From: a virus
Virus record (IMG/VR): IMGVR_UViG_3300037507_005588
Coordinates: 1 to 64,000 of that record
Direction: 5' to 3' (one strand)
DNA length: 64,000 nt
This document shows, in pieces, positions 4,430 through 40,010 of this stretch (the stretch's first letter is position 1; every line of letters starts with the position of its first letter). The notes beneath the pieces were generated by a model that saw only the letters and a list, made by a program, of their open reading frames with translations, had not been told where the DNA came from and ran no database searches. Both the position numbers and the translations under genes were made by a program.

Positions 4430-5118
4430 TGGAAAATATTTTTGAGAACATATCCAAAATTAAAGGGATGATGAATCTTACTGAAACATCTTCACCAAAC
4501 CAATATTTGTACATGGAATATGCCGTAAAAAAACGTTTGGAAAATTATTTTGGAATAAAATTTAACGTAAGTTATTCGGTTGGTAAAAGTGAGGAACTTA
4601 ACAGACCTGTTTTTGACATAGAGTTACTTGTTGACCCGAAGTTTTACCATTGGTTTTCTGATGACATAAATGCACGAATTTCTCATTTGGCGCACTCACC
4701 AAGAAGACCAATCTTAAAAGCTGTGAGAGTTCTTGGTTTAGAAGAAAAAAATATTGGAGATATTCAAGTTATTAAAGTTGGGGATTCAAAAGAGATGTAC
4801 GAGAAATTTGTAGAAGACTTCAAAAAAGTTTATAATAAATGGAGAGATATGATTATAAACAAGGATTATTCGGTAATTCCTGAAGAAGCGCAACCAAAAA
4901 CGGTACCTCCAAGACTTTTAGATGCCAAAATGATTGAAAATAACAATAAAAAGTTGCTTGACGACAACCTTAAATTGGATTTTGATTCTGATGAATTGAA
5001 ATCTTTCTTTGGAAAACAAGGGTATTTGAGTGGTAAACAATATTTTATTCATATTCTCGTTGCCCAACTTGCAATGCTCGGACTAATAGTGGACACTGTT
5101 CCTATAGATATACAATAA
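4429..5118 (+). CDS. hypothetical protein with IFENISKIKGMMNLTE leader
   Basis: 229-aa ORF. Confidence 0.75.
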   Translation: MENIFENISKIKGMMNLTETSSPNQYLYMEYAVKKRLENYFGIKFNVSYSVGKSEELNRPVFDIELLVDPKFYHWFSDDINARISHLAHSPRRPILKAVRVLGLEEKNIGDIQVIKVGDSKEMYEKFVEDFKKVYNKWRDMIINKDYSVIPEEAQPKTVPPRLLDAKMIENNNKKLLDDNLKLDFDSDELKSFFGKQGYLSGKQYFIHILVAQLAMLGLIVDTVPIDIQ

Positions 5119-5129
5119 TAAAAATTACA

Positions 5130-5137
5130 TATTTATA
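5130..5137 (+). promoter_or_regulatory. TATTTATA putative phage late promoter (representative copy)
   Basis: recurs 3-20 nt upstream of starts: 7041, 9111, 12108, 22516, 28236, 31354, 37437, 37691, 59810, 60505, 61316; minus strand at 15793 and 22045. Confidence 0.65.
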
Positions 5138-5140
5138 ATA

Positions 5141-5410
5141 ATGGGACAGAAATTTGTGATTACCGAACAAGATAGAAAACACGCTCAAGAATTACTTGAG
5201 AAATACATCAAAAATCCGTTTTACACGGCTAAATCTTTTGATATGGGAGACTTATCTGATTTTGACCCGAAAATAGATGAGAGAGCCGCAAAATACACTG
5301 AACAACTATCAGAAACTATACAACAAATTGCTCGTAAAGAAGGTAGATTGGTTGTGAAAAAAATGTTAGAAAATTTACTTAACCAGTATTCAAATAAAAC
5401 GGAGTCATGA
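5141..5410 (+). CDS. hypothetical protein (KFVITE leader)
   Basis: 89-aa ORF. Confidence 0.7.
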   Translation: MGQKFVITEQDRKHAQELLEKYIKNPFYTAKSFDMGDLSDFDPKIDERAAKYTEQLSETIQQIARKEGRLVVKKMLENLLNQYSNKTES

Positions 5411-6159
5411 ACTACTCACCTTATGATAAAATTTTAGCGGCCATAGAATTTTATAAAATGTGGTTGGACGAGAATAAAATTTCGGTTGCACCAAAAACTC
5501 CAATTTCTGTAATTGAATTGAAATATGGAAAAAAACTAAGAGAGGATTTGGGTGTGTCCGAATGGTTTAACTTGGAACGTGTTGGTGATTATATTTTGGA
5601 TAAAAAATTATTTTCGTATGCTCAGATTGTAGACCAAAAGATGCTTTCTGAATTTTCACCAAAATTATTCTCAAAACTCTTACCAGAAATAAATTTGGAT
5701 GGACTAACCGTTAAGTTAATAGAAGATTCTCCACGAAATTTTAGGATTATCTCAGAGTACAATCCTGAAGTTTGGTTCAAAAATAAAGATATTACACAAA
5801 AAGACGTAGATTACATTAAAAATTTGGAAAAAATTGTCACGTCTCGTATTGAAAAATACGTCGGTTTGGAAAGGGGTGAGCCATATCAAGGAAATTTTTA
5901 TAATTGGGGTGGTCATGGCTCATTTTTTTCAAATTTACCAGAATTTGAGAAGTATATCAATAAAGTAGTCAAACCCCAACTTAAATCTGCGGATGATAAA
6001 TCTCAAATACGTGGATTCAAAATAGATTTGACCAAACAGGGTAAACTCAGAATAAAAATAATTTGGGCTTCGGGTTTTCGAAGAAGTGTTACCAAAGAAG
6101 AACTTTTGGACAAACTAATGGAATTAGGATTCAACCCCCAACTTATCGTATTAGATTAA
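5407..6159 (+). CDS. hypothetical protein
   Basis: 250-aa ORF. Confidence 0.75.
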   Translation: MNYSPYDKILAAIEFYKMWLDENKISVAPKTPISVIELKYGKKLREDLGVSEWFNLERVGDYILDKKLFSYAQIVDQKMLSEFSPKLFSKLLPEINLDGLTVKLIEDSPRNFRIISEYNPEVWFKNKDITQKDVDYIKNLEKIVTSRIEKYVGLERGEPYQGNFYNWGGHGSFFSNLPEFEKYINKVVKPQLKSADDKSQIRGFKIDLTKQGKLRIKIIWASGFRRSVTKEELLDKLMELGFNPQLIVLD

Positions 6160-8376: not shown

Positions 8377-8742
8377 ATGAAAACAACCAAATTATTAATT
8401 TTTTGTTTGTCCATTTTCTTCATTTCATGTGAAAAAGATGAAATTTGTGACACATCTTTCAAATCTTATGATTTATTTGCTAAAGACACCCTTAGTTATG
8501 TTAAAATCACAGACATAAATAAAGATTCGGTATTATATTCAGATTCTAATATAGTTGGACCATTCAAATTGATAGATGATAGTTATTTCAAGATTGTAGG
8601 ACCTAACAAACAAGTAACTTTGAATCTACAATATCGTTTTGTGAATGATACTGTCCATGGAAGATTTGTCGGACTTTGTGTTTTTAGTGATGATTGTCAC
8701 ATTCAATATCATTTACCATTAGATACTATAAAATGGAATTAA
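8377..8742 (+). CDS. putative lipoprotein
   Basis: signal peptide ending FFISC. Confidence 0.6.
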   Translation: MKTTKLLIFCLSIFFISCEKDEICDTSFKSYDLFAKDTLSYVKITDINKDSVLYSDSNIVGPFKLIDDSYFKIVGPNKQVTLNLQYRFVNDTVHGRFVGLCVFSDDCHIQYHLPLDTIKWN

Positions 8743-9110
8743 AGCCCAAACAAGTTGTAGTTTTACGAGACTCCTTAAATAAAAAAATTGAAAATGTTCA
8801 TGAGTTTACCGATTATGACGGTGACCCAAATTATATTTTGTTCTATAAATTGAATTTTGCAACATCGAGGAAGATTCACTTGAATTGCTTTATCAAAGTC
8901 ACTCAATTTTCCATCTATAAACCTGAATTTCTGAATCTTTTACCCAAAAATCAAATTAAGATAAGTCTTGAAAAGAAAGTAATTAAAGATAACGATATTT
9001 TGTTGAAAAAGTTTTTCGGTTTGAGAGGTGATATAATTGATAATTACTATGTTAATTTCAACAAAAGTTCGGTTCAGGAAATTAATAATCATAATAAGTC
9101 ATTAAGATAA
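8733..9110 (+). CDS. hypothetical protein
   Basis: ORF overlapping the upstream stop. Confidence 0.55.
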   Translation: MELKPKQVVVLRDSLNKKIENVHEFTDYDGDPNYILFYKLNFATSRKIHLNCFIKVTQFSIYKPEFLNLLPKNQIKISLEKKVIKDNDILLKKFFGLRGDIIDNYYVNFNKSSVQEINNHNKSLR

Positions 9111-9506: not shown

Positions 9507-10174
9507 TGAAAAAGGTTAGATTGAACGAATCCGAACTTACAGAGTTGGTTCACCAAATTTTGGAGCGTAAAAATAAACATGTTACCTGTGAGAGATGTGA
9601 TTGGGAATGGGATATAACTGCCGAGGATGAGGACCCATATCTGTGCCATATGTGTGGACACAGAAATCACAAATCAGAAAATAAAGAAGGAGTAGGTACA
9701 TACGACGCACCGGCATTTCAAGTCGAACCTGACCACGTAACATTCAAACATGAATATAACGAAGACATTGTTATTTTAGATGACGACGATGAATCAACGA
9801 AGGACAATAAAAAAGATGAACCAATCAAAATTCTGAAAGCGAAATTAGTTGGTAAACCCTTCCAACTAACTATGGGTGTAGATGACCAAACTACTGTTGA
9901 ATATCAGATAAAAGACCTTGCTCTTGGTAAGAATTATCCGAGTTTTTTTACCCGAAGAGAAGATATGGATGAAAAATATGTTTCAGGTTTAATTGAAATT
10001 CAAAAAGTGTTATATAGAGGACAAGACGTTACCGAACTTGTAAAGAATATTACCAATTCGGGTGGGGCAGTTAAGAACGAAGTTAAAGATAATGTTTGGT
10101 TAAAAGTACAGAAATTAAGTAAGCACTTCGATTTATACCCATCAAAATTTAGAACTTGGTTTAAGATTGATTAA
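9506..10174 (+). CDS. leader-bearing protein with Zn-ribbon
   Basis: MKKVRLNESEL leader; CERC..CHMC. Confidence 0.7.
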   Translation: MKKVRLNESELTELVHQILERKNKHVTCERCDWEWDITAEDEDPYLCHMCGHRNHKSENKEGVGTYDAPAFQVEPDHVTFKHEYNEDIVILDDDDESTKDNKKDEPIKILKAKLVGKPFQLTMGVDDQTTVEYQIKDLALGKNYPSFFTRREDMDEKYVSGLIEIQKVLYRGQDVTELVKNITNSGGAVKNEVKDNVWLKVQKLSKHFDLYPSKFRTWFKID

Positions 10175-11081
10175 ACTCTGAGTTATACCAATTTTTATAT
10201 AAGTTTACCATTGTATCACTTTCGGTATGAGATTGAGATTCAGAGAATCTGTTATCAATTTTTATTTCACCTAATCTCTTGAGAACGCAGTTTATAATCA
10301 TGATGATTGTATCGTAAAAGTAGTAATCAAAGTTATTTGTAAACTTTTCCAAAAAAAATTTCACCACATCATTAGAATCCGAATTTTCAATAAATGACCA
10401 AAGAATATTCATTGTAAGATACTCCAAAACATCACCGGGTGAAAAGTCAGACCAATAACCCTCTTTATAGTACTCGCTGTCTGTGAAAATATCAGATTTC
10501 ATAAACTCGTAAATACTCTCATCGGTTATACGTTCTCCCGAAGGAAATTCAATAAGTTCGGATGCGATTGGAAAATATACTTCAATCTCATCCCTATTTT
10601 TTTCACCCCAAGACTCACCACTTACTTTATTTTGGTAAAGTTTGTAATCACCAATAGGTGTAGTAACAACAATTTTTTCACGAAATCTATTTTCAACTGA
10701 ATCTAAAATTTGATAAAATGATTTCTTAACTTCTCTATAATCCTCATATCTGAAGATATTATCATTGATTTTGAACTCATCAAAATCAAAAACATCCTTT
10801 ACATCAATTTGATTTGTTTTTTGAAATTGTGTTTTTCTTTCCTTATCAAACCGCCACCAAACTGGGTCCAATCCAATTATTCTACCCAATTTTCTGATAT
10901 ATGAATAAACTCTGTCACGAATGACTTCGCCGTCTACGATGATAGAATCATCATTACCCTCTAAAACAACCCTGAGTAGGTTATCATCATTTTCTTCAAA
11001 AGTCATTTTGAAATTACCTATTTTTGGTGGCAATCTCTCTGATAATTTTTTCCACAACCCTAAATTCTTAGATTGACTCAT
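10161..11081 (-). CDS. hypothetical protein
   Basis: 306-aa ORF. Confidence 0.75.
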   Translation of the reverse strand: MSQSKNLGLWKKLSERLPPKIGNFKMTFEENDDNLLRVVLEGNDDSIIVDGEVIRDRVYSYIRKLGRIIGLDPVWWRFDKERKTQFQKTNQIDVKDVFDFDEFKINDNIFRYEDYREVKKSFYQILDSVENRFREKIVVTTPIGDYKLYQNKVSGESWGEKNRDEIEVYFPIASELIEFPSGERITDESIYEFMKSDIFTDSEYYKEGYWSDFSPGDVLEYLTMNILWSFIENSDSNDVVKFFLEKFTNNFDYYFYDTIIMIINCVLKRLGEIKIDNRFSESQSHTESDTMVNLYKNWYNSEFNQS

Positions 11082-11151
11082 AATAATTAAATATTCGAGA
11101 ATTTACTAATTGAGTATTTGGAGATATCAATTTAATTTGTATATTTACAGT

Positions 11152-11481
11152 ATGAAATATTCAACGTGGGATAAATTGTATCTGATTGGTTTGGGCTCAG
11201 GTCTCTTACTTTCATTATTCGTAGTTTTGGTTTTTAGTGTGTTACTCGAGTTTGTATATAACACAACCAATCATGAACCACAAAGTCAAATTATTGTTAC
11301 CCCCACTCAGGTGGAATCTAAAGAAAAGGTTCAACCTTTTGTAATGGAAAAACCATCAGTAAAAGTTGTTGTCAAACAAACACCTGTAGTAAAAGAACCC
11401 GTACCTGTGGTAAAAGTTATTTCTGAACCAACACCCGTGGTAAAAGATTCAGTGGTAATCAAACAAGATACAACTAAATAA
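11152..11481 (+). CDS. membrane-anchored protein with PVVK-rich tail
   Basis: N-terminal TM segment; Pro/Val/Lys repeats. Confidence 0.6.
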   Translation: MKYSTWDKLYLIGLGSGLLLSLFVVLVFSVLLEFVYNTTNHEPQSQIIVTPTQVESKEKVQPFVMEKPSVKVVVKQTPVVKEPVPVVKVISEPTPVVKDSVVIKQDTTK

Positions 11482-20135: not shown

Positions 20136-22025
20136 TTATTTAACTTTTAGAATTTTTTTCCTAAAAAGTTTCTTTTCATTCTGTAAGACAGCCAAGTATT
20201 CTCCTGTAGAAAGGTAACCCAAATCAATTGTTTTTGAGTATTCACCTACATCATATTTGCCGTTTAGAACATCAATTTGTAATCTTCCGTTCAAATCGTA
20301 AACTCCCAAGGTTACATAACCAGGTTCAAAAATTTTGAACTTAAGAGTGGTTTCACCTTTTGTTGGATTCGGAAACAACATCATATCATCATATTCAAAC
20401 CCATTGTCTGTTTTGAATATTTGAAGTATTCCATCTGTTGGGGTAATTTTCAAATCTTTAGAGTTACGATTTCCCGCAAACTTCCTTGTTACATATAAAG
20501 GAGATTTATTCCAATTAATTTGTGCGGTTTTAGCCCTGAATTGAAGTGTGAAGAAAATTTCCCCATCTTGAATTAGATTCAAGTTATTTGATGGGTCATA
20601 TCCACCCCACTCAACTACGTTATCACTTGTGTTGATAAATGATACCCAATTTCCTGGTTTTAACTCGTTAGTTAATTCAACAAACTCCAATAAATCTGAA
20701 TCGTATTTCATAGCAACTTGTAATGAACCAAGTTCAATTGTACCAGTTTTTAGTTTAACAGGAATGCTTACCAAATCTCCTTCATTAACACCTAAAGTTG
20801 GGAAATTTACTTCGATTGATTCCAAGTCCATATCATAATGGGTTGTTACATCAATTATGTGTTGGTTCGCATTATTTGGATTAACAATCTCAATAGGAAT
20901 CATACGTGCCATTTTGAATCCTGTACCGTTCACATCACCTGGTGATGCTACGTAATATGTAACTGAATCGGGTTCGTTATTTCCAATCAACTTAGTGAAG
21001 TTGGTTTGACCTGGAATTGTACTTCTAAAGTTAGTAGATGAACCATTGATTGTGGTATATTCTGAATCTGTAAAGAATAGAACGTCTTTCACCGAATTAA
21101 CCCATGAGTTAAATCTACCTGATACTCTAGCGAAGATGGAATATACGTCAGATACTGAAACAGAATTATCACCGTTAACGTCTGAGGTATAAAAATCAAA
21201 CCCACTTGGAGACTGAGTTCCCAAAACAAATTTGTTGACTTGTTGAGCATCTGATGTTGTAACAATATTACCATAGCCTAAAGTATCCCCTTTCACATTA
21301 ATTCTTACATTCCAAGCTGAGGTGTCAACACTTACATTTGTAAATGCCCATCTCCCATCCAAACCAGATGTCGATGTGTCTACAGATACCCAAGTTGATG
21401 TATTTTTGAGTGATTTTTCTAAAACAACCGGAATGTTTTTAGAACCAGTTCCTGTTACATTAAGAAATCTACCACGGTATGAAAATGTTTGTGGGAGAAA
21501 TACACCGCCAAAGTTTTGTAAACTAAGAGTATAGTCATTACCTGATTGAGTTGTTGCCAATTGTGAAAATGGGGTTGCTCCAACGAAAGTCATTGCCAAA
21601 GGACTTAAATAAGTTGTCGATAGTGCTGGTTTATGATTCAAAGTTACATTGAACATAGCACCATTAGGTAAAGTAAAGTTCGGGTCTGTTCCAGTGTAAG
21701 TCATCGTAATTGTAACATACCCCAATGTTGGGTTATCGCTATATTGTAGATAGCTAGCAAAAGATGTATTAGACATCGTTATTGTATCAACACCCGCAAA
21801 TGCGTTTGCATCATAGAACACTCTAAATTGTGATGCGGTTAGTTTGTCATTGGTGCTATTATTCCAACAAAGTCCGATGTTGGTTTTTCCTTGAGTGTAA
21901 GACCCTAATTGGTACGTTGGGTCCATAGTTACGTATGCTCCAGTAGTTGTCGGTGTTGGACAAGTTTGACCTTGGACAGCCAATGCCGATAGAAACATCG
22001 CCACTGTAAAGATGGTTCTCTTCAT
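20136..22025 (-). CDS. secreted cohesin/dockerin-like protein with T9SS type-A C-terminal sorting domain
   Basis: signal peptide; cohesin-like VSIPV..LGSLQVAMKYDSDLLEF; SDVNGDNSVSVSD; CTD FPNPT..YDLNGR..LSTGEY..KILK. Confidence 0.75.
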   Translation of the reverse strand: MKRTIFTVAMFLSALAVQGQTCPTPTTTGAYVTMDPTYQLGSYTQGKTNIGLCWNNSTNDKLTASQFRVFYDANAFAGVDTITMSNTSFASYLQYSDNPTLGYVTITMTYTGTDPNFTLPNGAMFNVTLNHKPALSTTYLSPLAMTFVGATPFSQLATTQSGNDYTLSLQNFGGVFLPQTFSYRGRFLNVTGTGSKNIPVVLEKSLKNTSTWVSVDTSTSGLDGRWAFTNVSVDTSAWNVRINVKGDTLGYGNIVTTSDAQQVNKFVLGTQSPSGFDFYTSDVNGDNSVSVSDVYSIFARVSGRFNSWVNSVKDVLFFTDSEYTTINGSSTNFRSTIPGQTNFTKLIGNNEPDSVTYYVASPGDVNGTGFKMARMIPIEIVNPNNANQHIIDVTTHYDMDLESIEVNFPTLGVNEGDLVSIPVKLKTGTIELGSLQVAMKYDSDLLEFVELTNELKPGNWVSFINTSDNVVEWGGYDPSNNLNLIQDGEIFFTLQFRAKTAQINWNKSPLYVTRKFAGNRNSKDLKITPTDGILQIFKTDNGFEYDDMMLFPNPTKGETTLKFKIFEPGYVTLGVYDLNGRLQIDVLNGKYDVGEYSKTIDLGYLSTGEYLAVLQNEKKLFRKKILKVK

Positions 22026-23779: not shown

Positions 23780-24046
23780 ATGGAATTCCCATTTACACAA
23801 GAAACATTTGACGGGAAAATATTGAGGACATTTTCATCAGAAGTTAATGAAGATGAGCTGAAATGGCATTATGATTTGAAAGACAGAAAGATTCAAATTA
23901 TCAAAGGTGACAATTGGGAATTACAAATGGACAAGGAACTCCCTGAAAAATTAACACCCTTGAAGGAGTATTTCATCCCCAAGGGTGTTTATCATAGAGT
24001 TATAAAAGGTCAGGGTGACTTGGTCGTTCTAATTGAAGAGTTTTAA
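23780..24046 (+). CDS. cupin-like protein
   Basis: WHYD..FIPKGVYHRVIKG. Confidence 0.55.
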   Translation: MEFPFTQETFDGKILRTFSSEVNEDELKWHYDLKDRKIQIIKGDNWELQMDKELPEKLTPLKEYFIPKGVYHRVIKGQGDLVVLIEEF

Positions 24047-24624
24047 TTCTTCATAAGATATTTGTTGAAATCACTTGATAACGGTTTCTCGTTAACAAAG
24101 TAATATTTGTAAACATTTCCTTTGTGATAGATGGTTTTGGTAAAACCTGTCGGTACTAAAGTTCCTGTTGGGAGTTCAGGTAATTTGGGATTGAAGTGAA
24201 TATCAATTCTCACTTTTACATCACCTGTCTTTGCCAACTCCCTTTCGTGGGCTTCGAGAAGTCTCCATGTCCCACGATTTAGATATTGATTTTGAAGGAC
24301 ACAATTTAAGTAGGTGAAGGTTATGTACAACATATCTTTGGTACAATTGAAACCTGCGGCGGGTGCCAAATGACCTTTATCGTATACATTGTTTTCATAA
24401 TCCTTATGGTCTGAAGTCCAAATTTTAGTGTCTTTATAAAAATCCATTCCTGTTCTTGGTGCTGAACCGTTTGGACATTTTATTGTGTACTCCAACCATA
24501 GTGGTTGTTCGTAAACTTCAGAGTATTCACCTTTGAAAATTGGTGTCTCAAATGGTACCCTCTCCTTGGTCTGACCAAAAAGCAAAACGGGTACAAGTAA
24601 TATTAAAAATAATAGTTTTCTCAT
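24043..24624 (-). CDS. secreted DNA/RNA non-specific endonuclease (NucA/EndoG family)
   Basis: signal peptide; YDKGHLAPA, LNRGTWRLLE, VPTGFTK. Confidence 0.85.
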   Translation of the reverse strand: MRKLLFLILLVPVLLFGQTKERVPFETPIFKGEYSEVYEQPLWLEYTIKCPNGSAPRTGMDFYKDTKIWTSDHKDYENNVYDKGHLAPAAGFNCTKDMLYITFTYLNCVLQNQYLNRGTWRLLEAHERELAKTGDVKVRIDIHFNPKLPELPTGTLVPTGFTKTIYHKGNVYKYYFVNEKPLSSDFNKYLMKN

Positions 24625-25950: not shown

Positions 25951-26973
25951 TTATAGTTCAGTTGTTTCGTTATTCAAAATTATTTTTTCACCTTTGTTGA
26001 TAACCTCGTTTACTCTATTCTGAGGTTGATTTTCATATCCCCAAGTTTCCTTTACACCATCTCTAATAATGTGGTCAGCCCTCATTAGTGAGTGTAACTC
26101 ACAATATTTGGTTTCTTTAATACCATTCTTAACCGTTTGAACTACTTCTCGTAATCGATGATGTTCTTCCTGTTTGGTTTCTTTAACCCCATTTTTTATT
26201 ATATCATCAAATCTTTCATCGCCATCTAACCAATCACCATATTCAGTATGTTTCACCCCCTTTTCAAGGACATCTTTAACTGAAGGACGATTCTGATTCC
26301 ATTGGTCAATGGTTACTTTAATCCCATTTTGAATGACCTCTTCCATAGCAAGACCGTCCTCGAAGGGATTGTGTTCGGTCTCTTTCACCCCATTTTGAAT
26401 AGTATCTTCAATTGTTAAAAGTGAGTGGAATGTCATTTCTCGGGTGTGTTTCACTACATTTTGAATGGTGTCTTCAACAGTTGGTCTACGCAAGTCAACA
26501 TCACCCCAGGTGTATATCACCCCATTTTGAATGGTATCTCCAACCTCAAGGTGTTGCTCACTCTCATCAGCAACGGTGTATATCACCCCATTTTGAATGG
26601 TATCTCCAACGCGCGAACCAATGTTTAAGAAGCGGGGGTCGGTGTATATCACCCCATTTTGAATGGTATCTCCAACCAAAAGAGATTCCCGCGTGTACCC
26701 TCCTTGGGTGCGTTTTACCCCATTTTGGATGAAATTCTCAACCCATTTGGTTATATGGTGCTGATTCTCAATCACATCCAAAGAAATGATTTTGAATATT
26801 TTTTCAAAAAAATAATAATTATACCACAGGGTTCCTGTTTTTGTGAGTTCAAAAATCCATTTCTTTTCATCGGTAAAAATTAACCACCGACTACTATGAT
26901 TGATATATGTGTCAGCACCTTTGACCTTTTTATCAATCATTTTTTCTAAAAGTTCGTAGATGTCCCGTTTCAT
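25951..26973 (-). CDS. protein whose C-terminal two-thirds is a translated repeat-spacer array
   Basis: 12 copies of a 12-aa unit (VGDTIQNGVIYT-like) separated by unrelated 10-11-aa segments; TATATTTG promoter element just upstream of ATG 26973. Confidence 0.8.
   Translation of the reverse strand: MKRDIYELLEKMIDKKVKGADTYINHSSRWLIFTDEKKWIFELTKTGTLWYNYYFFEKIFKIISLDVIENQHHITKWVENFIQNGVKRTQGGYTRESLLVGDTIQNGVIYTDPRFLNIGSRVGDTIQNGVIYTVADESEQHLEVGDTIQNGVIYTWGDVDLRRPTVEDTIQNVVKHTREMTFHSLLTIEDTIQNGVKETEHNPFEDGLAMEEVIQNGIKVTIDQWNQNRPSVKDVLEKGVKHTEYGDWLDGDERFDDIIKNGVKETKQEEHHRLREVVQTVKNGIKETKYCELHSLMRADHIIRDGVKETWGYENQPQNRVNEVINKGEKIILNNETTEL
25978..26742. CRISPR. CRISPR-like array, 36-bp repeat and 30-bp spacers, embedded in a CDS
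   Basis: identical GGTGTATATCACCCCATTTTGAATGGTATCTCCAAC at 26509, 26575 and 26641; degenerate copies at 26707, 26443, 26377, 26311, 26245, 26176, 26110, 26044 and 25978; no cas gene in window. Confidence 0.6.
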
Positions 26974-27019
26974 AACACCAAATATACAAACTAAATTGTT
27001 ATGAAACAAATAAATTCTG

Positions 27020-27105
27020 CGGTGGGTGTGGGGCTCGAACCCACGCGGCTGTAACACCCTACTTGTTTAGCAAACAAGCCCCTTCACCAACTTGGGTAAC
27101 CCACC
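27020..27105 (-). tRNA. tRNA-Ser(GCT)
   Basis: cloverleaf, long variable arm, CTTGT-TT-GCT-AA-ACAAG. Confidence 0.9.
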
Positions 27106-27147
27106 AAAAAATCCCGACCTATCTCGGGATAACACATCGGATTATTG

Positions 27148-27235
27148 TGGAAGGAGAGGGATTCGAACCCCCGGAACCCTCTCAGGTTCAACAGTTTTCA
27201 AGACTGCCTCGATAAACCAACTCTGACATCCTTCC
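27148..27235 (-). tRNA. tRNA-Ser(TGA)
   Basis: cloverleaf, long variable arm, GCAGT-CT-TGA-AA-ACTGT. Confidence 0.9.
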
Positions 27236-37713: not shown

Positions 37714-38352
37714 ATGTCTAACAAAATTATACAAGAAGGTAAAGATGCTTTAAGTAGAAGCCTACTTCTTATGAACTATAGTAATAAACAAACTTTATCG
37801 GAAAACGTTGCAAAGGTTTCCAAAATTGAGGAACAAAGTTGGTCACAGATAACCAAGGGAGCCGCAACGGGTGCGGCTACAGGTGCTGGCATAGGATTGG
37901 CGGGAGCTGGTGTAGGTGCTATCCCAGGAGCTATAATTGGTGCTTTAGGTGGTGCAGTATTGGCTGCGATTGGAAACCCAAAGATGGACCAAGTAAAAAA
38001 AATGTTTGATGCGTGTAAAACAGAAAAATCTACCCCCACTCTAACAACATCTCAGTTAGATGCTATATCTGATAGTATTAATAATGCAATTCAGGGAGTT
38101 GGGACAGATGAAGATGCTATTTCTTCAGCATTACAACAATTACCGACAATTCCGGATTTGTGTGGTTTAATTAAAGCTTATGACTATCACGGAGATTTAT
38201 TCTCTGATTTAGATGGTGACTTGGATAGTGACTATGAATGGAAACAATATGTGGTGATTCCATTAAGAAATGCAATAAGAAAGAGTCAGGAAATAACCAA
38301 TAATGCTGGACAAAAAAATACAGGTTCAGGTAAAGAAAAAATTGATTGGTAA
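37714..38352 (+). CDS. glycine-zipper plus annexin-like repeat protein
   Basis: GAATGAATGAGIG..; AIQGVGTDEDAI matches the annexin GxGTDE signature. Confidence 0.55.
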   Translation: MSNKIIQEGKDALSRSLLLMNYSNKQTLSENVAKVSKIEEQSWSQITKGAATGAATGAGIGLAGAGVGAIPGAIIGALGGAVLAAIGNPKMDQVKKMFDACKTEKSTPTLTTSQLDAISDSINNAIQGVGTDEDAISSALQQLPTIPDLCGLIKAYDYHGDLFSDLDGDLDSDYEWKQYVVIPLRNAIRKSQEITNNAGQKNTGSGKEKIDW

Positions 38353-38354
38353 TT

Positions 38355-40010
38355 ATGGATAATCAAGCGTTAAAATCTTTGTTTGACAAAGTAGATGCAA
38401 AATTTGACATCGGGACCTTTGAGGAATTCAAGGGTAAGATGAAAACTGCCGACCAGAGAAAAAAGTTTTTTGATAAAGTAAGTGAGAAGTTTGACATTGG
38501 AACTTTTGAAAACATGGAGAAAAGACTTTCAGGTACAGGATGTAACGCTGGCGGAGTTAAAAACAAACAAGGAAAATGTGTTTTCCCGTGTTTGAAAAGT
38601 TTGAAACAATATTTAGTTCCTGGAAGCAAAGGTCAATATAAAATGAGTGGTGGTGAATATAAGTTCATATCATCAGGAAAATATACTTTCACCAGTAATG
38701 ACCCCAAAAAATCCAAGGAAGGAACATGGACATGTAACTCGAACGGTAAAGTAGAATTAGATGGACAAACTTCAAAATTATTAGGATTTCAATGGAAACA
38801 ATCCCCTACTGAAGAGGAAGTTAAAAATGGTCTCAAAATTTTGAAATTTGGAATGAAAGGTGATTTTGTTACGGTAGTTCAAAATAAATTAAAGGAAAGA
38901 GGTCTAAATCCAGGTTCTTCTGATGGTAAATTTGGTAGAAAAACGAAAAAAGCTGTCATGGATTATCAAACACAAATGGGACTTAAATCAGATGGAGTTG
39001 TTGGTAAAAATACTTATGCAAAACTATTCTTTGTTGCCCCAAAACAAGAACCAATAAATCTTAGTCCAGAAACCCAAGAAGTGCCTCAACAAGGTCAAAC
39101 CCAAACTACTGAACCTGGAATAAATCGTGTTTTTGAACCACAAACTCCTGAGATTCAAAAACAATCACCAATACAACCGGTATCACCTGTTGAACCACAA
39201 ACTCCTGAGATTCAAAAACAATCACCAATACAACCGGTAGCACCTGTTGAACCACAACAAACTCGAAGAATGAATAGAAGACAATCACGTAGACAACAAA
39301 ACGCACACGTTGACCCTAAACCAACGATAATAGAGAGTTTGAAAAAAAACTTGAAAACTACTTTAGTGGAAAAAACTAAAGAAAAAGAAAACTTAATCGT
39401 TGAAACCAACATAATCAAAAATAGATTCGCATTAATTTCTGAGGGTCAGACATTCAAGAGTGAAGAATCCAAAATTGATTTAATTGAAAGTGTATTCGTT
39501 GAAACAAATTATCTTTCAATACAAGGTTACAACTCCGAGTTAATTAATGAAGGTTTGTTTTCTTTCATCGGAAGTATATTAGGAGGTGGCGTAGGTTCAA
39601 CTCCTCAAGTGGTTGGTGAATATATTGCAAAATGGTTGACTAGAAAGTTAGGTGTTCCACAGGGTTCTTACATTGAAGGAGTAATTGTAAGTTTGGTTAC
39701 AAGTATGAATATTAGTGATTATGATAAAATATTTACCGATTGTCGATTCCTAACAAATAAATTATCTGACGCTTTGATTGAGGGATACCTGTTCCAAATG
39801 CAAAGTCAGAAAGGTTTGGAAAGTGGTGTTTCAGGATTTCTATTGTCAGCAATAAGAAACTCCATTATTGAATATTTCGCTGAAGATAAGGACGGTTTAA
39901 TTCAAAAACTCGAGGACAAAATTGCAGAATTCCTATGTCCTGCAATTTCAAAAATCTCGGGAAAAGTACAAGACAAGGCAGATGAGTTGAAAGACAAAGC
40001 TTTGGCTTAA
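38355..40010 (+). CDS. multidomain protein with peptidoglycan-binding domain
   Basis: DGKFGRKTKKAV..DGVVGKNT; Pro/Gln repeat linker. Confidence 0.75.
   Translation: MDNQALKSLFDKVDAKFDIGTFEEFKGKMKTADQRKKFFDKVSEKFDIGTFENMEKRLSGTGCNAGGVKNKQGKCVFPCLKSLKQYLVPGSKGQYKMSGGEYKFISSGKYTFTSNDPKKSKEGTWTCNSNGKVELDGQTSKLLGFQWKQSPTEEEVKNGLKILKFGMKGDFVTVVQNKLKERGLNPGSSDGKFGRKTKKAVMDYQTQMGLKSDGVVGKNTYAKLFFVAPKQEPINLSPETQEVPQQGQTQTTEPGINRVFEPQTPEIQKQSPIQPVSPVEPQTPEIQKQSPIQPVAPVEPQQTRRMNRRQSRRQQNAHVDPKPTIIESLKKNLKTTLVEKTKEKENLIVETNIIKNRFALISEGQTFKSEESKIDLIESVFVETNYLSIQGYNSELINEGLFSFIGSILGGGVGSTPQVVGEYIAKWLTRKLGVPQGSYIEGVIVSLVTSMNISDYDKIFTDCRFLTNKLSDALIEGYLFQMQSQKGLESGVSGFLLSAIRNSIIEYFAEDKDGLIQKLEDKIAEFLCPAISKISGKVQDKADELKDKALA
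39133..39257 (+). repeat. 57-bp tandem repeat (about 2.2 copies, EPQTPEIQKQSPIQPVxPV)
   Basis: units start at 39133, 39190 and 39247. Confidence 0.85.

What the first reader, a model, noticed from the sequence alone, without database searches (positions are those of the whole stretch)
25978..26742. A CRISPR-like repeat-spacer array translated in frame as a protein
Seen: 12 repeats of 36 bp at a 66-bp period (one 69), so each unit is 22 codons and the frame never breaks. Three repeats are identical and have a palindromic core (CCATT-TTG-AATGG); the copies toward the gene 3' end decay progressively. All 11 spacers are unrelated. The four flanking the identical repeats are 50-57% GC in an AT-rich window (e.g. 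GCGCGAACCAATGTTTAAGAAGCGGGGGTC), so they look foreign. Established: 36/30 geometry and a CAAC end are typical of Bacteroidota type II-C and VI-B arrays; from memory the + strand repeat resembles Cas13b direct repeats (..CAnTTTGAAnGGTAT..CAAC). Inference: either spacer acquisition is used to diversify a phage protein, or this is a dual-use locus giving protein on one strand and guide or decoy crRNAs on the other. Caveats: no cas gene in the window, and the outermost repeat (26707) is not identical to its neighbour, unlike a standard leader-proximal repeat.
Basis: partly seen in the sequence, partly recalled or inferred. Interest (0 to 1): 0.9.

Follow-up and report, generated by a model that had tools for sequence, protein, structure and literature searches.

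The report
CRISPR-like repeat array inside phage gene
A jumbo-phage gene encodes a protein built from twelve 22-residue units, and on the opposite strand the DNA of those units looks like a Cas13b/Cas12f-type CRISPR array, so a whole protein family may have been born from a CRISPR array, although chance resemblance is not excluded.

Summary
In detail: 12 repeats of 36 nt at a 66-nt period (one 69), three of them identical, separated by unrelated 30-nt stretches. All lie in frame in a minus-strand gene (25951-26973, 340 aa).

It is a real protein gene, not a working CRISPR array.
- More than 2400 homologs share a folded N-terminal domain followed by 22-aa units, each a 12-aa beta-hairpin motif plus a linker.
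- Ten of the 11 "spacers" recur as conserved peptides in homologs, in the same order but with gaps.
- No cas genes were found. The sequence was unchanged in lake metagenomes from 2020 to 2024. The polarity is opposite to that of real arrays.

The CRISPR likeness is nevertheless measurable.
- Read antisense and in register, the repeat is 25-27/36 identical to genuine repeats. These lie next to cas13b in Flavobacterium and next to Cas12f-like genes in jumbo phages.
- Genuine repeats are no closer to each other (23-30/36).
- All nine conserved inner columns match.
- A covariance model of real repeats ranks these three repeats first in the window (E 0.012).
- Synonymous sites are repeat-like too.

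Best reading (about 0.5): a cassette-shuffled phage protein whose repeat region descends from a phage-borne mini-array. Chance resemblance is about 0.3 and dual use about 0.15. An earlier scan note flagged a similar 66-nt repeat protein in another genome.

The parts
25951..26973 (-). Gene for P0001 (340 aa plus stop). It has an N-terminal domain followed by 12 tandem units of 22 aa (one of 23).
   Evidence: ORF and translation. More than 2400 homologs at E<=1e-3.
26740..26973 (-). N-terminal alpha/beta domain (residues 1-78), always found at the N-terminus of family members.
   Evidence: AlphaFold2 pLDDT about 80 over residues 1-84. 280 clusters at 50% identity match it. Invariant residues S28, W30, W39, L49-W50-Y51-N52, W77. 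No Pfam, PHROGs or PDB match.
25978..26742 (-). Twelve units. Each has a 36-nt block coding the motif h-E/G-D-T-I-Q-N-G-V-K-x-T (a predicted beta-hairpin with an N-G turn) and a 30-nt block coding a 10-aa linker cassette.
   Evidence: Unit table. Strands flank each N-G in both AlphaFold2 models, at pLDDT 52 and 62. Cassettes are shared with homologs.
26509..26676 (+). Three identical 36-nt repeats (26509-26544, 26575-26610, 26641-26676). On the + strand, antisense to the gene, they resemble 36-nt GTTG...CAAC CRISPR repeats. On the coding strand they encode VGDTIQNGVIYT.
   Evidence: 25-27/36 identity in register to real repeats. Top three hits of covariance model R1 in the window, 23.9 bits, E 0.012, full length.
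26611..26640 (-). The only linker (DPRFLNIGSR, 57% GC) not found in any of 120 homologs.
   Evidence: No exact copy in IMG/VR.
27019..27105 (-). tRNA-Ser(GCT), 45 nt upstream of the start codon, followed by tRNA-Ser(TGA) at 27147-27235. Context only.
   Evidence: ARAGORN and Rfam.

Best explanation
SHOWN. The stretch is the repeat region of a minus-strand protein gene of a large, uncultured freshwater phage that infects Bacteroidota. The protein has a folded N-terminal domain and 12 tandem units of 22 residues. Each unit is a conserved 12-residue motif followed by a 10-residue linker. The linkers are not foreign DNA. They belong to a shared repertoire of peptide cassettes that homologs carry in the same order, with cassettes present or absent. 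The variation is greatest next to the N-terminal domain. Between phages, the DNA of motif and cassettes is nearly identical, while synonymous sites of the N-terminal domain are randomised.

INFERRED (mechanism). The 36-nt motif serves as the homology for recombination, and this moves, deletes and duplicates cassettes within and between phages. The motif probably folds as a beta-hairpin, stacked into a solenoid-like scaffold on which the linkers form a variable surface. That would suit a binding protein in an arms race; its target is unknown.

INFERRED (origin, about even odds). The 36+30-nt unit, read on the antisense strand, carries the sequence signature of the 36-nt GTTG...TTTGAA.GG...CAAC CRISPR repeat class. 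Cas13b systems of Flavobacterium and small Cas12f-like systems of jumbo phages use this class. The simplest account is that a phage-borne mini-array came to be translated as an extension of the N-terminal domain gene. The repeats became the hairpin motif and the spacers became the linkers. The locus no longer works as a CRISPR array.
For: Protein gene: open frame and 22-codon units. More than 2400 homologs with the same architecture and 280 N-domain clusters.

Cassettes: 10 of 11 linkers recur in homologs, for example EYGDWLDGDER in 88 of 120. Near relatives show collinear presence and absence, with different first linkers.

Recombination: EYGDWLDGDER differs by 0-3 nt in 8 phages and IDTTHHKNK is identical in 3. 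In the motif, Gly8 is GGG in 57/69 units (background 0.11), Val9 is GTG in 45/69 (background 0.14) and Asn7 is AAT in 69/69. Conserved N-domain residues, by contrast, use mixed codons. Many other linkers are joined to the same repeat in lake metagenomes.

Fold: beta-hairpins around N-G. Beta-solenoid-like matches at Z about 8 on a low-confidence model.

Host: a T9SS sorting domain in ORF 20136-22025.

CRISPR signature:
- Real repeats were fetched by tools and lie next to cas13b or directly downstream of Cas12f/U3-like genes in complete 288-365 kb phages.
- In-register identity is 25-27/36, against 23-30 between real repeat families.
- All nine (nearly) invariant inner columns and 7 of 8 end columns match.
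- Model R1 gives 23.9 bits and E 0.012 in a blind scan, exactly on the three repeats.
- In 17 further loci, 19 of the 20 hits other than the model's own array are family units, all antisense to the gene.
- Given the protein sequence and phage codon usage, P(identity >= observed) is 6.5e-5 to 0.02.
- One phage (G411) has a Cas12f-like gene, an array and a family gene within 4.3 kb.
Against: - AT-rich phage DNA gives fat tails. Unrelated 36-mers reach 25-26/36 against the best of 16 real repeats, about 1e-5 per window.
- Most family units score only 16-20 bits, overlapping the best unrelated hits at 18-19 bits.
- No unit exceeds 27/36 and none begins with GTTG, so no intermediates were found.
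- Only 5 of 8 consensus pairs are kept.
- The family gene of G411 is not repeat-like, at 12-19/36.
- The repeat-like strand is antisense to the gene, whereas in G411 the array and the gene point the same way.
- The degenerate pattern used had its N positions placed with a remembered Cas13b repeat in mind.
- The fold models are of low confidence, and the protein's function is not known.
Confidence: 0.5

Rival explanations
1. An ordinary tandem-repeat protein. The 22-residue period and the T-I-Q-N-G hairpin motif happen to give, on the antisense strand, a sequence like 36-nt CRISPR repeats. The rare codons are frozen accidents, spread by concerted evolution.
For: Everything that shows a conserved protein. 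The protein sequence alone already gives 19-22/36 identity. Unrelated windows reach 25-26/36, including an unrelated coding repeat in L174 with GGTG...CAAC ends. Most units score no better than the best background hits. Rfam CRISPR-DR families give no hit even at E<=10.
Against: The match falls on a block, register and strand that were fixed beforehand, so about 1e-5 to 1e-7 per position applies rather than the blind E-value. All nine conserved inner columns match. Synonymous sites add 4-6 matches beyond expectation. The 36+30 geometry, the host phylum and the presence of such arrays in similar phages all agree.
Confidence: 0.3
2. A dual-use locus: protein on the minus strand, and an RNA that interacts with CRISPR machinery. 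Either a + strand transcript mimics pre-crRNA and acts as a decoy for host Cas13b or a phage Cas12f-like effector. Or the mRNA, carrying 12 copies complementary to the host repeat (19/21 in its 3' half), pairs with host crRNA precursors.
For: The likeness is strongest in the 3' 21 nt: 19/21 to the F. columnare/covae repeat. Synonymous sites are repeat-like. The motif keeps rare codons across phages. The host phylum is the one in which cas13b was found here.
Against: Identity of 69-75% is far below that of known phage repeat mimics (the author's own knowledge). Three of 8 consensus pairs are broken, including one in the terminal GTTG/CAAC stem. Cassettes are conserved at the DNA level too, so recent exchange explains the rare codons without selection on RNA. 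A guide made from the + strand would target the phage's own mRNA. No transcript data exist; the one 'RNA' run looks like DNA.
Confidence: 0.15
3. Active diversification: CRISPR adaptation enzymes insert new spacers into the gene, adding new linkers to the protein.
For: Linkers are mutually unrelated and mostly exactly 30 nt. Half of 1311 unit spacings in 121 proteins are 22 aa. Variation among near relatives is greatest at one end. One linker is unique.
Against: Ten of 11 linkers are old, shared cassettes. The variable end is the wrong one for the repeat orientation. No cas1 or cas2. No change between 2020 and 2024 samples. The unique linker has no exact copy in IMG/VR. Linker lengths vary only in steps of three bases, as selection on a protein would give.
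Confidence: 0.04

Closest known systems
Type VI-B (Cas13b) CRISPR arrays of Flavobacterium (F. columnare, F. covae, Flavobacterium sp. J27; loci L022, L030, L025)
   Same: 36-nt repeat plus about 30-nt spacers. The repeat ends in CAAC and shares the core A.TTTGAA.GG. Identity is 25/36 in register and 19/21 in the 3' half. The host phylum is Bacteroidota.
   Different: The real arrays are non-coding, have identical repeats starting with GTTG, lie next to cas13b and put their degenerate repeat at the far end. Here only 3 of 12 repeats are identical, the start is GGTG, 5 of 8 pairs are kept, no cas gene is present, the polarity is reversed and the whole stretch is translated on the other strand.
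Mini-arrays downstream of Cas12f/Cas12-U3-like genes in complete jumbo phages (L052, L060, L073/G411)
   Same: Carried by large phages of similar habitat. The repeat class is the same, and these are the closest repeats found (27/36 to L060). One such locus lies 1.4 kb from a member of this protein family.
   Different: Those arrays have stop codons in all frames, 3-6 identical repeats and an adjacent effector gene. The window's phage record has no such effector.
Phage-encoded repeat mimics (solitary repeat units, RNA anti-CRISPRs; the author's own knowledge, not checked here)
   Same: Phage DNA that resembles host CRISPR repeats without cas genes.
   Different: Known mimics are non-coding and close to identical to the host repeat. 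This one is 69-75% identical and lies inside a conserved coding sequence.
Beta-hairpin or beta-solenoid tandem-repeat proteins (for example right-handed beta-helices of CAP/TBCC type, adhesin passengers)
   Same: Period of about 22 residues, strand-turn-strand units, variable loops. The low-confidence model aligns to such folds at Z about 8.
   Different: No sequence relation. No Pfam repeat family matches. The DNA-level cassette exchange and the CRISPR-like unit structure have no counterpart there.

Membership tests
Functional CRISPR array | Near-identical direct repeats along the array | tested here: not met
   Only 3 of 12 copies are identical; the others are 61-75% alike.
Functional CRISPR array | Unique spacers of uniform length | tested here: met
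   Ten of 30 nt and one of 33 nt, with no similarity among them.
Functional CRISPR array | Non-coding; spacers derived from foreign DNA | tested here: not met
   In frame in a conserved gene. Ten of 11 spacers recur as peptides in homologs. No exact copy of the unique one in IMG/VR.
Functional CRISPR array | cas genes in the genome | tested here: not met
   No Cas1, Cas2, Cas13b or Cas12f-like gene in the 89.8-kb record (30% complete) or in five related records, two of them 98-100% complete. A host-encoded effector cannot be excluded.
Functional CRISPR array | Conserved repeats at the leader end, degenerate repeat at the far end | tested here: not met
   In repeat sense (+ strand) the degenerate copies come first and the identical ones last. 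In L030 the order is the reverse.
36-nt GTTG...CAAC repeat class (type VI-B and phage type V-F/U3-like) | Sequence fits a profile of genuine repeats | tested here: inconclusive
   25-27/36 identity, within the 23-30 seen between genuine families. Sixteen of 17 conserved columns match. Model R1 gives 23.9 bits and E 0.012, the top of the window. Other family units score only 16-20 bits. Rfam CRISPR-DR families give no hit.
36-nt GTTG...CAAC repeat class (type VI-B and phage type V-F/U3-like) | Consensus RNA structure (terminal stem 1-5:32-36, inner stem 12-14:24-26) | tested here: not met
   Five of 8 pairs are kept; 2:35, 5:32 and 14:24 are broken.
36-nt GTTG...CAAC repeat class (type VI-B and phage type V-F/U3-like) | Transcribed in repeat sense and processed by the effector | not testable with these tools
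   No usable RNA run. The one labelled RNA behaves as DNA and is held only as contigs.
Tandem-repeat protein | Unbroken frame, period a multiple of three, motif conserved at protein level in homologs | tested here: met
   Unit spacing is 22 aa in 50% and 23 aa in 18% of 1311 cases.
Tandem-repeat protein | Regular repeated fold | tested here: inconclusive
   A beta-hairpin is predicted at every motif, but mean pLDDT is only 52 and 62.
Tandem-repeat protein | Belongs to a described repeat family | tested here: not met
   No Pfam, PHROGs, PDB-sequence or ESM Atlas match.

The most novel reading that the evidence does not exclude
The locus is still read by CRISPR machinery. While the minus strand makes the protein, an RNA from the array (a pre-crRNA mimic from the + strand, or the repeat-complementary mRNA itself) engages host Cas13b or a phage Cas12f-like effector. 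Units may also still be gained through adaptation enzymes. CRISPR biology and protein diversification would then be coupled in one stretch of DNA.
Probability: 0.15. Interest if true: 0.95.

Novelty: categorically new. Interest (0 to 1): 0.75.

Why it matters
If the repeat region does descend from a CRISPR array, this would be, as far as four literature searches showed, the first protein family born from one. Repeats would have become a structural motif and spacers variable loops. It would also explain how a phage obtains a ready-made, recombination-prone scaffold for a hypervariable protein.

Without that origin, the finding is still useful. It describes a very large, unannotated family of freshwater jumbo-phage proteins whose cassettes are exchanged at the DNA level. 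It is also a warning for CRISPR finders. If the locus still interacts with Cas13b, it would be a new kind of counter-defence.

Tried and rejected
Searches that found nothing
- Tandem Repeats Finder found nothing.
- The Rfam scan at E<=10 gave only the two tRNAs and noise, and no CRISPR-DR family.
- Pfam, PHROGs, PDB sequences and the ESM Atlas gave nothing significant for the protein.
- Foldseek against the PDB gave nothing at E<=0.001. BFVD gave only uncharacterised proteins of uncultured phages.
- Megablast and tblastn against 50,697 GenBank phage records found no match.
- An exact scan of IMG/VR for the unique 30-nt linker found none.
- Scans of JGI metagenome contigs and IMG/VR for the exact or slightly degenerate form of the identical repeat found none. 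DNA of the closest relatives could therefore not be compared, and no dN/dS on close orthologues was possible.

The same table was then computed from the stored files.

Checks that gave no usable evidence
- Laying four runs gave no RNA evidence: all are contigs and the 'RNA' run is probably DNA.
- Gene neighbourhood is not conserved among 9 related loci.
- None of five related phage records holds a GTTG...CAAC array.
- The second AlphaFold2 run, on an in-register alignment, raised pLDDT only to 62.

Ideas considered and dropped
- A multi-core peptide precursor: no modifying enzymes are conserved nearby.
- A diversity-generating retroelement: the linkers share no template-like similarity.
- The + strand ORFs inside the array (26412-26732 and others) as genes: they are by-products of the palindromic core.

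Full report
WHAT IS THERE. The window is the first 64 kb of an 89.8-kb IMG/VR virus record estimated to be 30% complete. It has about 34% GC and 25 tRNA genes, so it is part of a jumbo phage. One ORF (20136-22025) carries a type IX secretion sorting domain, which points to a Bacteroidota host. At least 17 lake-water runs from 2020-2024 hold the stretch.

There are twelve 36-nt blocks at a 66-nt period, with one step of 69. Three copies are identical (26509, 26575, 26641). Identity decays towards 25978. The eleven intervening stretches are mutually unrelated, 30 nt long (one is 33), and those near the identical copies are 50-57% GC.

IT IS A PROTEIN GENE. Every block begins on a codon boundary of the minus-strand ORF 25951-26973. 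The product, P0001 (340 aa), has an N-terminal domain (residues 1-78) followed by units of 22 residues. Each unit is a motif h-E/G-D-T-I-Q-N-G-V-K-x-T plus a 10-residue linker.

A search of 5.8 billion proteins gave more than 2400 homologs at E<=1e-3. All come from metagenomes and all have the same architecture, with 4 to 20 units. The N-terminal domain alone matches 280 clusters at 50% identity, always at the N-terminus. No Pfam, PHROGs, PDB or GenBank phage match exists.

AlphaFold2 models the N-terminal domain with pLDDT about 80. It places a beta-hairpin around each N-G, at low confidence (mean pLDDT 52 and 62). The repeat part of the model aligns to beta-solenoid folds at Z about 8, which is within the range of non-specific matches.

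THE 'SPACERS' ARE CASSETTES. Ten of the eleven linkers recur, as peptides with conservative changes, in other members. EYGDWLDGDER is in 88 of 120, WGYExQPQxR in 40 and KQEEHHRLRE in 35. Only DPRFLNIGSR is unique.

Proteins with almost the same N-terminal domain carry different subsets of cassettes in the same order, and differ most in the first position. Between phages whose N-domain synonymous sites are randomised, the cassettes are almost identical in DNA. EYGDWLDGDER shows 0-3 differences in 8 phages. The motif keeps rare codons: GGG in 57/69 units against a background of 0.11, GTG in 45/69 against 0.14, and ACC.

The repeat region is therefore a young pool of units exchanged by recombination at the 36-nt motif. 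In the lake metagenomes the conserved cassettes have about ten times the depth of this phage, and many other linkers are joined to the same repeat. This phage's own sequence shows 0-1 differences between 2020 and 2024.

IT IS NOT A WORKING CRISPR ARRAY.
- No Cas1, Cas2, Cas13b or Cas12f-like gene is in the record or in five related phage records, two of them 98-100% complete.
- Only three repeats are identical.
- In repeat sense, the degenerate copies lie at the 5' end, opposite to real arrays.
- Rfam's CRISPR-DR families do not match.

BUT THE CRISPR LIKENESS IS REAL. A degenerate form of the repeat's 3' half was scanned over one genome per prokaryote species. It hit 17 single sites and three arrays with a 66-nt period, in Flavobacterium columnare, F. 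covae and Flavobacterium sp. J27. I placed the two N positions of that pattern with a remembered Cas13b repeat in mind, so that hit alone is not an unbiased test.

These arrays lie next to cas13b and point the same way. Two more Cas13b-bearing genomes gave further repeat families. A scan of IMG/VR showed that complete jumbo phages of 288-365 kb carry non-coding mini-arrays of the same repeat class. Each lies directly downstream of a Cas12f/Cas12-U3-like gene of about 400 aa, without cas13b.

Read on the window's + strand (antisense to the gene), ungapped and in register, the identical repeat compares with the genuine ones as follows.
- It is 25, 25, 25 and 26/36 identical to the four Cas13b-linked repeats, and 25-27/36 to the phage ones.
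- Genuine repeat families are 23-30/36 identical to one another.
- In an alignment of 16 genuine repeats, all nine (nearly) invariant inner columns and 7 of 8 end columns are matched.
- In a covariance model built from that alignment, the three repeats are the top three hits of the whole window: full length, 23.9 bits, E 0.012. The best unrelated hit scores 19 bits.
- In 17 further loci, 19 of the 20 hits other than the model's own array are units of family genes, all antisense to the gene.
- Given the amino-acid sequence and phage codon usage, the expected identity is 19-22/36. The probability of reaching the observed value is 6.5e-5 to 0.02 for the window's repeat, and 0.006 to 0.07 for the family consensus.
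- One phage record (G411) has a Cas12f-like gene, its array and a family gene within 4.3 kb.

CAUTIONS.
- AT-rich phage DNA gives fat tails. Unrelated 36-mers reach 25-26/36 against the best of 16 repeats, about 1e-5 per window. One of them is an unrelated coding repeat with GGTG...CAAC ends.
- Most family units score only 16-20 bits.
- No unit exceeds 27/36 or starts with GTTG.
- Three of the eight consensus base pairs are broken.
- The G411 family gene is not repeat-like.
- Cassettes are as conserved in DNA as the motif. The rare codons therefore need no selection on RNA.

VERDICT. Certain: this is a translated 22-residue tandem repeat in a large, undescribed phage protein family. Well supported: the units behave as cassettes shuffled by recombination at the conserved 36-nt motif.

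About even odds: the unit structure and sequence descend from a phage-borne CRISPR mini-array of the GTTG...CAAC class that became coding. Chance resemblance keeps about 0.3, a present RNA-level role with Cas13b or Cas12f-like effectors about 0.15, and ongoing spacer acquisition about 0.04.

Four literature searches found no description of such a gene.

Noticed in passing
L052:1-1387, L060:3949-5392, L161:6922-8750: Complete jumbo phages (288-365 kb, with terminal repeats) carry a Cas12f/Cas12-U3-like gene of about 400 aa, directly followed by a mini-array of 3-6 identical 36-nt GTTG...CAAC repeats with 29-30-nt spacers. No cas13b is present. They may belong to the virus-encoded RNA-guided systems mentioned in a 2026 preprint abstract (10.64898/2026.10.15.759431); this was not checked.
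   Followed up: partly
L161:6922-11166 (record G411): The Cas12f-like gene, its array (about 8536-8750) and a member of the repeat-protein family (10150-11166) lie on the same strand within 4.3 kb.
   Followed up: partly
L174:1884-1984: Two and a half copies of another 36-nt GGTG...CAAC element at 65-nt spacing, about 0.5 kb upstream of a family gene. It overlaps the 3' ends of small 'MKYIITE...' genes in two different frames, and is 24/36 identical to the window's repeat.
   Followed up: partly
own record G000:C1:85300-86200 (outside the window): A second coding repeat with a 66-nt period: a Thr/Pro/Gln/Ser-rich linker (TPTNTPSNTASQT...). It is at most 20/36 identical to real repeats, so it served as a negative control.
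   Followed up: yes
window 27019-58645: 25 tRNA genes, two of them (tRNA-Ser) directly upstream of the gene. Typical of jumbo phages.
   Followed up: no
window 20136-22025 (-), 24043-24624 (-), 38346-40010 (+): A cohesin-like protein with a type IX secretion sorting domain, a secreted non-specific endonuclease, and a protein with a peptidoglycan-binding domain. The first points to a Bacteroidota host.
   Followed up: partly
L030:900-4609 (F. covae AL-02-36): cas13b next to the intact array is broken by many stop codons into at least four pieces.
   Followed up: no
L025:4733-6263 (Flavobacterium sp. J27): The Cas13b array is interspersed with six 88-nt long repeats that begin and end like the 36-nt repeat.
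   Followed up: no
L011:4995-6705 (same in L012, L013): The family gene is split into three consecutive ORFs in three independent contigs: a frameshift or a real split.
   Followed up: no
L007:1930-2991 and 4995-6074: Two paralogs of the family lie 2 kb apart on opposite strands in one phage.
   Followed up: no
window 26743-26760 (-): The last residues of the N-terminal domain (I-T-K-W-V-E) use ACC for Thr in 9 of 10 phages. At the DNA level they resemble a partial copy of the repeat motif, as if the domain boundary were a degenerate first repeat.
   Followed up: no
window 26412-26732 (+): Antisense ORFs of 67-106 aa run through the array. Because of the palindromic core ATT-N3-AAT-GG they also read I-x-N-G. 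They are by-products, not genes.
   Followed up: partly
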